Shown: positions 15,001 through 18,000 of the stretch, piece by piece
How positions within the stretch are numbered: the stretch's first letter is position 1
Layout: each line of letters starts with the position of its first letter
Origin: Gekko japonicus
Lineage: Eukaryota
NCBI RefSeq assembly: GCF_001447785.1
Contig: NW_015164707.1
Location: 227,926 to 291,925 of the forward strand
Length of the DNA: 64,000 bases
Direction: 5' to 3'
Position numbers: made by a program

Positions 15001-18000
15001 TGAGCCACAAAGGAGTTCCAGGCCAGAAAAAGAGGCCTCTGCTCTCATACCCTTCCTCTCTGAGCAGGGTCTCCAACTTCCCAACGCTGAAAGGAGGATA
15101 GTTGTAAAAGGCTTACCCCACAACTCACCTTTTTTTTCTTTTTCTCCTTCTTTTTTCTTTTTCGCTCAGGATCATCCTCTTTTTTCTTCTTCTTTTTCTT
15201 GTGATCAGAATCTGAAGGTGTTTCTGCCAAGAAAGATTCAGTAATTGAAGGCGGCATAATTCAGACAAGGGTGGGGAATACTGGCAGCTTAGGCTCCATC
15301 TGGTGCTGTGGCTCCATCCTACTTTCTGGCAGGACTTTACCGGAGACTGCTACTGCTGCTGGCTTGAGAGCTGCCCAAGCCTGGGTGCTCAGGGCTATGC
15401 CGGTTCTGAGGGAAATGAGAGAAGACCACCACAGCACCAGATGAGGAAGCCTCTTACCTGGAGGGACAGGATCCTGGGTACGGCTTTGCTTATGCTTGTG
15501 CTTGTTTTTTTTCTTAGGTGGTTGGATGTGCATTAAACGACACTGCTCTGGCAGCTGCAACAGCACAAAAAGAAACAGAGGCACATTAGGACAGGGAGTA
15601 TCACGTTGGTCTACTGCTGCAGAAGGTAATTATGAGGAAGGAGGCTGTCAAGACTTCCACAGGGAAAGCTCATAGTAGTTCACATTCTGTTGACAGCTCA
15701 GATTCCTGGGTCTTCTTTGAGTCAAAAGGGTCCAGCTATTCTGAAGCCACTAAGTGACATTATCTGCCAGGCTTGACCTTTCCAAACACAGCAAAGCTCA
15801 GGCTCTGCTATCCTCAGCACTTTCCAGTTATTCCCAGCCTATTGTAACACTATCTGCTACACTCTCAACAAATGGTAAACCTATCCTTCATGGAGTACTC
15901 CACTGGAAATCAAATAAAAATGATTCTGCTCTGTAACCAAGGAACAAAACCCACTGCCATCTGCCCAGTAATACTCTTTTCTATTACAAAGCAAAGGACT
16001 GCCATCACCTTCTGCTTGGGATCTCTATTGCCATTGTGTCAACCAAACTAGGTGAATCCTAAGGTGCTAGACTCAGTCTCTCATAGGAATTCATATGTTC
16101 CCCATGACCTTCAACTCGCACCACAACTTCACCCACGTGTGTGTATAATGTTCAGGCTTTCCAGCATGGGCAGGTTTTCTCTTCTATCAGGAGACTACAG
16201 TGTCATTTCCCATCCAAAGCAAAGATATCCTCTCCTTCACTGCAGTCCCCATACTGCTCCCATCTTTGACTTACCGGGCCTGCATGTAGACGAAAGCCTG
16301 TCAGCATTGTACCAGTGATGGGGTTGAATGAGCTCCCACAGATGGGAGGCTTCTCAATGAGAGAGCGTAGGCTGCTGTTGTCATGAGAACCTGGCAGATC
16401 TATCATCCCTGGCAGATCAGGCAGGAAGTTACTGAGCTTCTCCTTCACCTTTTTGCCACAAAACGTCTTGTAAGCATGCTCCAGGTTATAGTAGGTGATG
16501 AGGTTGGTGCTCCCTGTTAATTCAGTGGTGCCTGGTGCAAAACATAGATCATAACACATACTGTGATTAGTTTATCAGAAAACATTCAGAATAGGCCAGG
16601 TGTGGCTTGCAAAGCTCTGTTCTAAACCAAATTTCTTATGCCGCCCACTGCTTTATCTGGGTATGAAGCAATGCAACCCCCCCACCTTTATCTGGAACTA
16701 CCACATCATTCTGAACCCTCTTGGTTCCCACTCATTTAAGTGTGCAGTACTCTTCCAAGGAAAGGAACACATATGTTGCAAAAAAAAACACACAACCCCA
16801 AAAAACAACAACCCTAGGTGTGATAAATTTTATCAAAAAAAGAAGAAGATTGGATTTATACCCTGCCCCTCACTCAGAGTCTCAGAGTGGCTTACAAGCT
16901 CCTTTCCCTTCCCTTCCCCACCACAAACACCCTGGGAGGCAGGTGGGGCCAAGAGAGCTCTTTGGAGGACTGCCCTTGAGAGCTCTGAGAGAACTTGTGA
17001 CTGACCCAAGGTGCAGGTAGAGGAGTGGGGAATCAAACCCGGCTCCCCCAGATTAGAAGAAGAAGAAGAGACTGGATGTATTCCCCGCCCTTCACTACCC
17101 CCAAAGGAGTCTCAGAGCGGCTTCCAAGCGCCTTTCCCTCCCCCTCCCCACCAGAGAGACACCCCGTGAGTGAGGCGGGCGGGGCCGAGAGAGCCCTTGA
17201 CGGAGGCGGCCCTTTCCCCCCCAGAGCGACGCCTTGCCCAAGGCCACCCGGCCCGCTGCGAGTGGAGGGGGGGAGGGGATCGAGCCCCCCGGCTCCCCCC
17301 CCCGAGGGCCCGCGCGCTGGACCACCGCACCGACCCGGCCCTCCCCCTGCTGTCACAGCGAAGGGACACNNNNNNNNNNNNCCCCCCCCCACCGGCCACT
17401 ACCTGGCAACTCGCGCATGAGGTAAAAAGGGCCGACGGCCGCCGCCGCCTTGCGGGCCGCTTCTTCCCCGGCGGCCCCCGCCGCCCCCGCAGGCCCAGGG
17501 GCAGCTCCGCTCCCCGGCCCGCCGGCCTTCCCCGGCCCGAAGCCCAGCGCCGTGGCTGCGGCGGACTGAGGGGGCTCCGCCCCACCGAAGAGAGCGGAGA
17601 AATTCTCCATCATCCCGGCGTGCTCCGCGCAGCACTCTCCCATTGGCTCCGCACCCTGACGCTCCCTTCCGCTTCCCTTGCCTTCATTGGACGGCGCTCG
17701 GGCCCGCCTCTCCATGTCATTGGCCGGCGAGCCTAGAAACCTACTCCTCCTCTGATTGGTCGACTGCCGAGACGCTCCATGGCGCATTTCCAGTGACGCC
17801 GCAGGGCTAAATCTCGCGCGTCCTTGTTTGTGTTCTGGGCAGCCAATGGAGGGGGACAAGACGGGCCCGTAAAGACGCGCCGTGCTCCGTTAGCCCCGCC
17901 TTTTCTTTGACGGGTGCCATCGCTGGCCAATGAGATCAAAGCGAGCGACGACGGCCCGCGCCGGAGCCAGGCCCCGGGGAAGCCACGCGGGGATCCGGGC

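What the first reader, a model, noticed from the sequence alone, without database searches (positions are those of the whole stretch)
15314..15457. Duplicated MED19 terminal exon inside intron 3: candidate mutually exclusive alternative last exon
Seen: a 105-bp copy of the last exon (acceptor, 22 codons, stop, start of UTR) lies out of order between exons 3 and 4. All four differences are benign: TGA to TAA (stop kept), AGC to AGT, GGT to GGC, and GTG to TTG (V to L). The acceptor TTTCCCTCAG is intact. It sits only 52 nt from the exon-3 donor, below the usual vertebrate minimal intron size, and is out of phase with exon 3 (would read EPA*). It is in phase with exon 2. Inference: exon 2 spliced to this copy gives a ~177-aa MED19 that keeps the conserved core and native C-tail but lacks both Lys-rich, NLS-like exons. 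Four changes are too few to demonstrate selection.
Basis: partly seen in the sequence, partly recalled or inferred. Interest (0 to 1): 0.72.

Follow-up and report, generated by a model that had tools for sequence, protein, structure and literature searches.

The report
Silent MED19 last-exon copy in intron
A 105-base copy of the last coding exon of the MED19 gene really does sit inside an earlier intron of this gecko-like genome, but its signals suggest a silent by-product of DNA copying or repair, not a working alternative exon.

Summary
The phases, the 52-nt spacing and the ~177-aa arithmetic are right.

The alternative-last-exon reading is not backed by the signals:
- No AATAAA or ATTAAA lies between the copy's stop and exon 4.
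- The native branch point was not copied.
- The only consensus-like branch site at a workable distance lies 16 nt from the exon-3 donor.
- Four random hits leave acceptor, frame and stop intact in 81% of simulations.

New here: a perfect 15-nt inverted repeat brackets the copy, extendable to 21 bp. It is one of three such repeats in the window. This suggests template switching or templated break repair. In pre-mRNA it predicts a stable stem that loops out the decoy exon.

My best reading is a lineage-specific, mostly silent pseudo-exon. No vertebrate genomes or RNA reads were available, so usage and age stay untested. Interest is low to moderate.

The parts
15314..15418 (-). Copy of the intron-4/exon-5 boundary: 13 nt with the acceptor, 22 codons, a stop and 23 nt of UTR. 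It may extend to 15422.
   Evidence: 101 of 105 identical to 14789-14893. Only two copies in the window.
15337..15405 (-). Open frame of the copy, NRHSPEHPGLGSSQASSSSSLR, with stop TAA at 15339-15337.
   Evidence: Translation. The source exon gives the same peptide with V for L and stop TGA.
15406..15457 (-). 52-nt stretch between the exon-3 donor (cag|GTAAGA) and the copy's acceptor AG (15407-15406).
   Evidence: The copy's acceptor tract has 17 of 18 pyrimidines. YTNAY candidates lie only 37 and 11 nt upstream of the acceptor.
15429..15443 (-). Left arm of the perfect 15-nt inverted repeat, 15 to 29 nt into intron 3. A 6-bp extension lies at 15447-15452. The arm contains the candidate branch A at 15442.
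   Evidence: searches (I6; only these two sites in the window), (duplex -28.5 kcal/mol, -37.2 with the extension).
15297..15311 (-). Right arm of the inverted repeat, 2 nt after the end of the copy. Its extension lies at 15291-15296.
   Evidence: It is one of only 3 perfect inverted repeats of at least 15 nt with a 20-200 nt loop in the window.
15335..15343 (-). Donor-like site ccg|GTAAAG inside the copy, with the cut between 15341 and 15340. TGA to TAA raises its match to the consensus from 5 to 6 of 9.
   Evidence: The 5 of 9 for the exon-5 position was counted by hand, because the script line for it was one base off.
15224..15296 (-). Rest of intron 3 up to the exon-4 acceptor. It holds no canonical poly(A) hexamer. 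The 9-mer GATGGAGCC occurs twice, at 15318-15310 and 15300-15292.
   Evidence: hexamer scan; D14.
14789..14893 (-). Source segment: end of intron 4, the exon-5 coding part (14880-14812, stop TGA at 14814-14812) and the start of the 3' UTR.
   Evidence: The tail is identical to 5 of 5 tail-bearing sauropsid orthologues fetched.
15458..15554 (-). MED19 exon 3, 97 nt, Lys-rich (PPKKKNKHKHK).
   Evidence: Pfam Med19 E = 5.9e-09; splice signals.
15129..15223 (-). MED19 exon 4, 95 nt, Lys-rich.
   Evidence: Pfam Med19 E = 0.0048, below the curated cut-off. Matches the orthologues.
16275..16531 (-). MED19 exon 2, the conserved core. It ends on a whole codon.
   Evidence: Pfam Med19 E = 3.4e-42. 98% identical to the Gekko kuhli model.
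17403..17610 (-). Coding part of MED19 exon 1. ATG at 17610, with in-frame upstream ATGs at 17613 and 17643. The donor cag|GTAGTG is followed 21 nt later by the N run 17381-17370.

Best explanation
The feature is a real, lineage-specific, dispersed (not tandem) duplication. About 105-109 bp spanning the intron-4/exon-5 boundary of MED19 was copied in direct orientation into intron 3, 525 bp upstream of its source.

Inferred origin: one complex copying error, such as serial template switching at a stalled fork or templated filling of a double-strand break. The same event, or a palindrome already present at the site, left a 15-nt perfect inverted repeat bracketing the insert.

Inferred consequence: the copy is a decoy exon that the spliceosome mostly ignores.
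- Its strong acceptor is only 52 nt from the exon-3 donor.
- It lost its own branch site.
- The only consensus-like substitute at a workable distance lies in a stem arm.
- A predicted 15 + 6 bp stem closes just after the donor and loops the whole copy out. That brings the exon-3 donor near the exon-4 branch region.

Normal MED19 (241 aa) is therefore made. The intact frame of the copy reflects youth, not selection.

Shown: the duplication, its limits, the inverted repeat, the missing poly(A) and branch signals, and the thermodynamic stem. Inferred: the mutational mechanism, the silence of the copy and its age.
For: - The copy is 101 of 105 identical. Homology stops sharply on both sides, so neither flank is duplicated and exon 4 lies in between. 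That excludes a tandem unit.
- A perfect 15-nt inverted repeat brackets it, 15443-15429 and 15311-15297 (I6). The motif occurs nowhere else in the window, even with 2 mismatches.
- The whole 64-kb window holds only 3 perfect inverted repeats of at least 15 nt with a 20-200 nt loop. Of 30 shuffles, 29 gave none and one gave a single pair.
- Predicted pairing probability is 0.70-1.00 for all 15 pairs, in both the exon 3-4 context and a 1.5-kb context. Duplex energy is -28.5 kcal/mol, or -37.2 with the 6-bp extension.
- Short template switches are documented to create new inverted repeats, hairpins and clustered or multinucleotide changes (PMC5453318, passages). The tg to ct change here is such an adjacent pair.
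- No AATAAA or ATTAAA lies between 15337 and 15224.
- The native branch site CTTAC, 22 nt upstream of the exon-5 acceptor, was not copied. The candidate 37 nt upstream of the copy's acceptor lies inside the stem arm and 16 nt from the donor.
- A donor-to-branch distance under 50 bp is the published criterion for steric interference (PMC5740500, passages).
- Exons looped out by complementary regions have lower inclusion (PMC8052449, passages).
- Neutral simulation: with 4 random substitutions, 81% of draws keep AG, frame and stop, and 27% also have at most one amino-acid change.
Against: - No outgroup intron, RNA read or raw read could be examined. Insertion polarity, age, fixation and silence are all inferred.
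- All four differences fall in the 69 coding-plus-stop bases and none in the 36 other bases. Given that placement, only 4.9% of neutral draws are as benign. That is a weak, post hoc hint of constraint.
- Introns of 43-65 nt are spliced in human (PMC4463651, abstract and passages; a 56-nt intron in the abstract start of 10.1101/784868, listing). So 52 nt is not an absolute bar to exon 3 using the copy.
- The copy's acceptor tract (17 of 18 pyrimidines) is stronger than that of exon 4 (12 of 18).
- Microhomology at the junctions is only suggestive: GTG..TCTT on the 5' side and GATGG on the 3' side.
- The fold of the 256-nt region as a whole is not unusual (z = -1.19; 25 of 200 shuffles fold at least as well).
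- The stem is a thermodynamic prediction only.
Confidence: 0.65

Rival explanations
1. One reading: the copy is a functional alternative 3' exon. The exon-2 donor (16275) splices to 15405 and skips exons 3 and 4. The product is a 177-aa MED19 that keeps the core and the native tail but lacks the Lys/Arg-rich region.
For: - Phase and length are right.
- Acceptor, frame and stop are intact, and the one amino-acid change is conservative.
- All 4 changes lie in coding or stop positions. Given that, 4.9% of neutral draws are as benign.
- In Drosophila, Med19 without the Lys/Arg-rich HIM still enters Mediator and supports viability. It loses homeodomain binding and is partly cytoplasmic, so such an isoform could have a distinct function (PMC4006704, passages).
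- Annotated alternative 3' ends of MED19 exist in other amniotes: Gopherus evgoodei X3 and a Monodelphis 176-aa form, 2 of 8 fetched.
Against: - There is no poly(A) hexamer of its own before exon 4. Terminal exons are selected through alternative cleavage and polyadenylation (PMC5740500, passages).
- The native branch site is lost, and the substitute lies in a stem arm.
- Exon 3 has strong signals, so skipping is not predicted.
- The stem loops the copy out.
- 81% of neutral draws keep the copy intact.
- None of the 8 fetched orthologues has the exon-2-to-tail join or the L variant.
Confidence: 0.07
2. The copy is used from exon 3, or as a 65-nt cassette (15405-15341) with the donor-like ccg|GTAAAG. 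Either way the frame meets an early stop: EPA* from exon 3, or a stop inside exon 4 after the cassette when entered from exon 2. The transcript is then unproductive or truncating. This could be splicing noise or a poison exon that tunes MED19 output.
For: - Strong donor (8 of 9) and a very strong acceptor tract (17 of 18) 52 nt apart.
- Ultra-short introns of 43-65 nt are spliced in human (PMC4463651).
- TGA to TAA improves the internal donor-like site from 5 to 6 of 9 (and a hand count).
- PA* frame.
Against: - Donor-to-branch distance is 16 nt for the only workable YTNAY, far under the 50-bp steric criterion.
- The stem sequesters that site and loops out the exon.
- In the human study, 12 of the 15 ultra-short introns with splicing evidence were G-rich. 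I did not measure the base composition of this 52-nt stretch.
- Appreciable use would cost output of a conserved Mediator subunit.
- The stop positions after the cassette were read by hand. They were not checked with a tool, because joined sequences were not to be made.
Confidence: 0.1
3. Assembly artefact: a chimeric or mis-joined read, for example an amplification or foldback chimera, put a second copy of the exon-5 boundary into intron 3.
For: - The window has six N runs of 12-953 nt, so the assembly is not gapless.
- Inverted flanks are also typical of foldback chimeras (recalled, not tested).
Against: - The two copies differ by four substitutions and no indels. A collapsed or chimeric duplicate of the same locus should be identical.
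- The junctions are clean, and the surrounding exon-intron structure is otherwise exactly that of the orthologues.
Confidence: 0.08
4. A small mobile element with 15-bp terminal inverted repeats captured the exon fragment and transposed into intron 3.
For: Perfect 15-nt inverted termini bracket the insert.
Against: - No target-site duplication next to the arms: the outer flanks are ..ttcct and gagcc...
- No other copy of the arm motif in 64 kb, even with 2 mismatches.
- The payload comes from 525 bp away in the same gene and the same orientation.
Confidence: 0.03

Closest known systems
Short-range template-switch mutations (four-point model; PMC5453318) and templated insertions in break repair (MMBIR or polymerase-theta end joining)
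   Same: The inserted DNA has a template nearby in cis. A reverse-complement copy of flanking sequence creates a new perfect inverted repeat or hairpin. An adjacent two-base change accompanies it.
   Different: - The direct-orientation segment is about 105 nt from 525 bp away. From recall, that is longer and more distant than typical short template switches or polymerase-theta fillers.
- At least two or three switches would be needed.
- Whether the inverted repeat arose in the same event is unknown.
- I saw the polymerase-theta papers only as search listings.
Exon duplication giving mutually exclusive or alternative exons (PMC5740500; PMC6071210, listing only)
   Same: A homologous exon copy lies inside the same gene, with acceptor and frame intact. 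A short donor-to-branch distance provides steric exclusion.
   Different: - It is not tandem, and it is not adjacent to its source, since exon 4 intervenes.
- It is a terminal exon with a stop but without its poly(A) region.
- It is out of phase with the neighbouring exon 3.
- There is no transcript evidence.
- The flanking complementary sequences loop the copy out. They do not compete for a docking site.
Intronic pseudo-exons or decoy splice sites silenced by RNA structure (looped-out exons; PMC8052449)
   Same: A strong splice site lies inside an intron, enclosed by complementary sequences predicted to pair.
   Different: The pairing is predicted only. Conservation and covariation cannot be assessed from a single sequence.
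Drosophila Med19 lacking the HIM, an experimental construct (PMC4006704)
   Same: The hypothetical exon-2-to-copy product would likewise lack the Lys/Arg-rich region while keeping the core.
   Different: That was an engineered deletion in a fly. Nothing here shows that a natural isoform of this kind exists.

Membership tests
Alternative last exon / mutually exclusive terminal exon | A homologous or alternative exon with an intact acceptor, open frame and stop | tested here: met
   Acceptor AG at 15407-15406, 22 codons and TAA.
Alternative last exon / mutually exclusive terminal exon | Its own cleavage and polyadenylation signal downstream of the alternative stop and before the next exon | tested here: not met
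   No AATAAA or ATTAAA at 15337-15224, and none of the nine other hexamers scanned there either. The first AATAAA is at 14941, in intron 4.
Alternative last exon / mutually exclusive terminal exon | Frame compatible with the exon that would splice to it | tested here: inconclusive
   In phase with exon 2. Out of phase with exon 3 and exon 1, giving EPA*.
Alternative last exon / mutually exclusive terminal exon | A usable branch site 18-40 nt upstream of the acceptor | tested here: inconclusive
   The native CTTAC, 22 nt upstream of the exon-5 acceptor, was not copied. CTCAT 37 nt upstream of the copy's acceptor exists, but it lies in a stem arm and 16 nt from the exon-3 donor. A second CTCAT, 11 nt upstream, is too close. 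The 18-40 nt range is recalled.
Alternative last exon / mutually exclusive terminal exon | Junction reads or cDNA showing use, and conservation in relatives | not testable with these tools
   No vertebrate genome or transcript collection was open. None of the 8 fetched orthologous models shows the join.
Template-switch / templated-insertion mutation | The inserted sequence is identical or nearly identical to a template nearby in cis | tested here: met
   101 of 105 identical to a segment 525 bp away on the same strand.
Template-switch / templated-insertion mutation | A reverse-complement copy of adjacent sequence that creates a new inverted repeat at the event | tested here: met
   A 15 of 15 inverted repeat brackets the insert, one of 3 in the window. 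That it is new, and not older than the insert, is not shown.
Template-switch / templated-insertion mutation | Microhomology at the switch points | tested here: inconclusive
   Candidates are GTG..TCTT on the 5' side and GATGG, within the GATGGAGCC 9-mer repeated 18 nt apart, on the 3' side (D14, 6). The boundaries cannot be fixed without the ancestral sequence.
Template-switch / templated-insertion mutation | Derived state: absent from the outgroup allele | not testable with these tools
   No related vertebrate genome was available.
Tandem exon duplication | The duplicated unit is repeated head to tail, with flanks duplicated too | tested here: not met
   Homology ends at 15418/15422 and at 15314. 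Exon 4 and 420 nt of unrelated sequence lie between the copies.
Processed (LINE-mediated) retrocopy | Intron-less, with a poly(A) tail and a target-site duplication | tested here: not met
   The copy contains 13 nt of intron 4 with the acceptor, and has no A tail and no flanking direct repeat. LINE reverse-transcriptase ORFs do exist in the window, so an RNA template is not excluded.
MITE / DNA transposon | Terminal inverted repeats plus a target-site duplication, and multiple genomic copies | tested here: not met
   Inverted ends are present, but there is no target-site duplication and no other copy in the window. The rest of the genome was not searchable.
Med19 (Pfam PF10278) | A profile match above the curated cut-off | tested here: met
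   Exon 2 scores 144.8 bits and exon 3 scores 36.6 bits against a cut-off of 25. Exon 4 scores 17.3 bits, below the cut-off.

The most novel reading that the evidence does not exclude
In this gecko lineage a copying accident created, in one step, a structure-gated alternative 3' exon. When the 21-bp stem is open and exon 3 is skipped, exon 2 joins the copy. The product is a 177-aa MED19 that enters Mediator but lacks the Lys/Arg-rich transcription-factor-binding and nuclear-localisation region. It would be a natural counterpart of the Drosophila HIM-deleted form, acting as a modulator or dominant negative of Hox- and GATA-type inputs.
Probability: 0.05. Interest if true: 0.6.

Novelty: new member of a known kind. 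Interest (0 to 1): 0.27.

Why it matters
If my reading is right, this is a clean natural example of a complex templated insertion caught young: a direct copy from 525 bp away plus an inverted flank. It also shows how an essential gene can tolerate a strong decoy acceptor inside a 234-nt intron, through closeness to the donor, loss of the branch site and a looping stem.

It matters for annotation as well. Homology-based gene finders could end MED19 early at the copy, either as EPA* or as the tail. The closest public model, from Gekko kuhli, is partial and stops exactly at the end of exon 3. The reason for that is unknown.

That would interest people who study Mediator and the evolution of splicing.

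Tried and rejected
1. A search of the large protein collection with the copy's own 22-aa peptide, to find any public model carrying the L variant. I dropped the step, so the L-variant search stays unchecked.

2. Only single exons were searched.

3. Cluster look-up of 5 squamate MED19 clusters. Gekko kuhli was the only gecko record among the members listed. Only 15 of the 24 members of cluster 4 were shown. No short isoform was found.

4. Rfam scan of the whole window at gathering thresholds: 0 matches. The stem-loop belongs to no described RNA family.

5. Literature. 'MED19' + 'gecko' gave 3 papers, of which the 2 listed concern the GeCKO CRISPR library. 'MED19' + isoform, splicing and exon-skipping terms gave nothing on a MED19 exon duplication among the 8 listed. 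I found no report of this duplication in that library.

6. Tandem duplication, retrocopy and transposon origins were considered and rejected (see Membership tests).

8. No complex prediction, structure prediction or fold search was run. None bears on the question.
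Full report
**What is there**

The window carries MED19 on the minus strand. I searched the exons one at a time against Pfam. Exon 2 (16531-16275) matches Med19 (PF10278) at E = 3.4e-42, exon 3 (15554-15458) at 5.9e-09 and exon 4 (15223-15129) at 0.0048, which is below the curated cut-off. Exon 1 lies in the ORF 17353-17787. Its ATG is at 17610, with in-frame ATGs at 17613 and 17643, and its donor follows 17403. A 12-nt N run sits in intron 1. 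The last exon starts at 14880 and stops at 14814-14812. Counted exon by exon, the model has 241 aa. That is close to the squamate orthologues of 240-246 aa.

A search with exon 2 alone gave 240 proteins at E <= 1e-10 among 335 candidates, of which 120 were listed. The best was a partial Gekko kuhli model at 98%. Other squamates scored 95-96%, birds and turtles 92-94%, and mammals 91% or less. The window is therefore gecko-like and I do not take it for human.

**The observation**

On the minus strand, 15418-15314 repeats 14893-14789 at 101 of 105 positions without gaps. The repeat covers 13 nt of intron 4 with the acceptor, 22 codons, the stop and 23 nt of UTR.
- GGT GTG to GGC TTG, which are two adjacent bases and so possibly one event;
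- AGC to AGT;
- TGA to TAA.

Homology ends abruptly on both sides, and no third copy exists in the window. The copy's acceptor is 52 nt from the exon-3 donor. From exon 3 the frame reads E-P-A-stop. Exon 2 ends on a whole codon, so it is in phase, and the product would be 69 + 1 + 85 + 22 = 177 aa.

A perfect 15-nt inverted repeat brackets the copy. In gene sense, its arms are at 15443-15429 and 15311-15297 (I6).
- The motif occurs nowhere else in the window, even with two mismatches.
- The window holds only three perfect inverted repeats of at least 15 nt with a 20-200 nt loop.
- 29 of 30 shuffles have none.

As RNA, the arms pair with probability 0.70-1.00 in both the exon 3-4 context and a 1.5-kb context. 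A 3-nt bulge and six more pairs extend the stem down to the sixth base of the intron. Duplex energy is -28.5 kcal/mol for the 15-mer and -37.2 for the extended stem. The 256-nt region as a whole does not fold unusually well (z = -1.19). At the 3' junction the 9-mer GATGGAGCC occurs twice, 18 nt apart (D14).

**Origin (inferred)**

- It is not a tandem duplication, because exon 4 and about 420 nt of unrelated sequence lie between the copies and the flanks are not repeated.
- It is not a processed retrocopy, because it contains intron sequence and has no A tail and no target-site duplication.
- It is not an evident transposon, because it has no target-site duplication and no other copies.

A direct copy from 525 bp away, joined to a reverse-complement copy of the adjacent flank, fits serial template switching or templated break repair. 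Short template switches are documented to create new inverted repeats, hairpins and multinucleotide changes (PMC5453318, passages). The alternative is that an older palindrome broke at its centre and was filled from the nearby exon. I cannot separate the two without an outgroup.

Four differences in 105 nt is about 3.8%. With squamate substitution rates that I recall only roughly (about 1e-9 per site per year), that suggests an age of the order of 10-30 million years. The age would be lower if error-prone synthesis introduced some of the changes at the event. This figure is an inference and no tool produced it.

**Does it work as an exon?**

For:
- The acceptor tract is the best in the gene, at 17 of 18 pyrimidines against 12-15 for the real exons.
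- Frame and stop are intact.

Against:
1. No AATAAA or ATTAAA, and none of the nine other hexamers scanned, lies between the copy's stop and exon 4. The first AATAAA is at 14941, in intron 4. Terminal exons are chosen through alternative cleavage and polyadenylation (PMC5740500, passages).
2. The native branch site CTTAC, 22 nt upstream of the exon-5 acceptor, lies outside the copied segment. The only YTNAY at a workable distance is CTCAT, 37 nt upstream of the copy's acceptor. Its A (15442) lies in the left stem arm and 16 nt from the exon-3 donor. That is far below the 50-bp donor-to-branch criterion for steric interference.
3. Exons looped out by complementary regions are included less (PMC8052449, passages).
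4. Exon 3 has good signals, so the required skipping is not predicted.
5. Intactness carries no weight. With four random substitutions, 81% of simulated copies keep AG, frame and stop, and 27% also have at most one amino-acid change. Conditioning on all four falling in the coding part gives 4.9%, a weak post hoc hint.

A caveat against my own reading: human introns of 43-65 nt are spliced (PMC4463651). Some use from exon 3 therefore cannot be excluded. It would truncate the protein, or would target the transcript for nonsense-mediated decay by the recalled 50-55 nt rule. TGA to TAA also improves an internal donor-like site, ccg|GTAAAG, to 6 of 9.

**Comparison with other species**

Of the 8 named orthologues I fetched from the 120 listed, 5 carry the tail and all 5 have V. 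None has L, and none joins exon 2 to the tail. Two have unrelated alternative 3' ends, and the Gekko kuhli model stops at the end of exon 3. A look-up of five clusters showed no other gecko record among the members listed. No vertebrate genomes or reads were available, and the copy-specific peptide was too short to search. Conservation and expression are therefore unchecked.

**Verdict**

The duplication is real and is most likely a young, silent pseudo-exon left by a complex copying error. The alternative-last-exon idea remains possible, but it lacks the signals it needs. If it were true, the Drosophila HIM-deleted form shows that such a protein could still join Mediator while losing homeodomain binding and full nuclear localisation (PMC4006704, passages). 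I found no report of this duplication in the paper library.

Noticed in passing
window 16456-16461 (minus strand, exon 2): The window encodes ...HAYKTFCGKK..., whereas all 8 of 8 fetched orthologues, from Gekko kuhli to Monodelphis, have ...YNKFCGKK.... That is two adjacent residue changes in an otherwise almost invariant core. It could be a lineage-specific clustered substitution or a sequence error.
   Followed up: partly
window 13546-13774: A roughly 200-bp element downstream of the MED19 stop is flanked by a perfect 14-nt direct repeat, TAGTCCAATCATTA (D9). It holds an internal 37-nt inverted repeat (I1) and an AATAAA at 13609. It looks like a SINE- or MITE-type insertion with a target-site duplication.
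   Followed up: no
window 14941: An AATAAA hexamer lies in intron 4, about 60 nt upstream of the last exon. It is the first canonical poly(A) hexamer downstream of the copy. Whether it is used is unknown.
   Followed up: no
window 17934-18335 (+): An ORF beginning [16 protein letters not shown]... starts about 400 nt from MED19 exon 1 on the opposite strand, in a stretch with 58-61% G+C. From recall it resembles the first exon of TMX2, which would make a head-to-head gene pair. Pfam found nothing in this piece.
   Followed up: partly
window 36867-39656 (+); 11436-12917 (+); 33707-34639 (-): There is a 930-aa open LINE ORF2 with endonuclease and reverse-transcriptase domains, plus two reverse-transcriptase fragments. 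One fragment lies just downstream of MED19.
   Followed up: partly
window 46375-48312 (-): A single 646-aa open frame has an N-terminal BTB/POZ domain (E = 7.5e-13). From recalled synteny it may be BTBD18.
   Followed up: no
window 16877-16930 and 17107-17160: A 54-nt direct repeat (85% identity, 230 nt apart) lies in MED19 intron 1 (D2). It is probably two copies of an interspersed repeat.
   Followed up: no
window 17370-17381, 24286-24344, 30425-31080, 34914-35813, 40539-41381, 58196-59148: Six N runs of 12-953 nt. I left them as they are. The first lies 21 nt after the exon-1 donor.
   Followed up: no
protein P0001 (Gekko kuhli KAL8182882.1): The closest public MED19 model is marked partial and ends exactly at the last full codon of exon 3. 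I could not check whether a similar insert in that genome confused the annotation.
   Followed up: no
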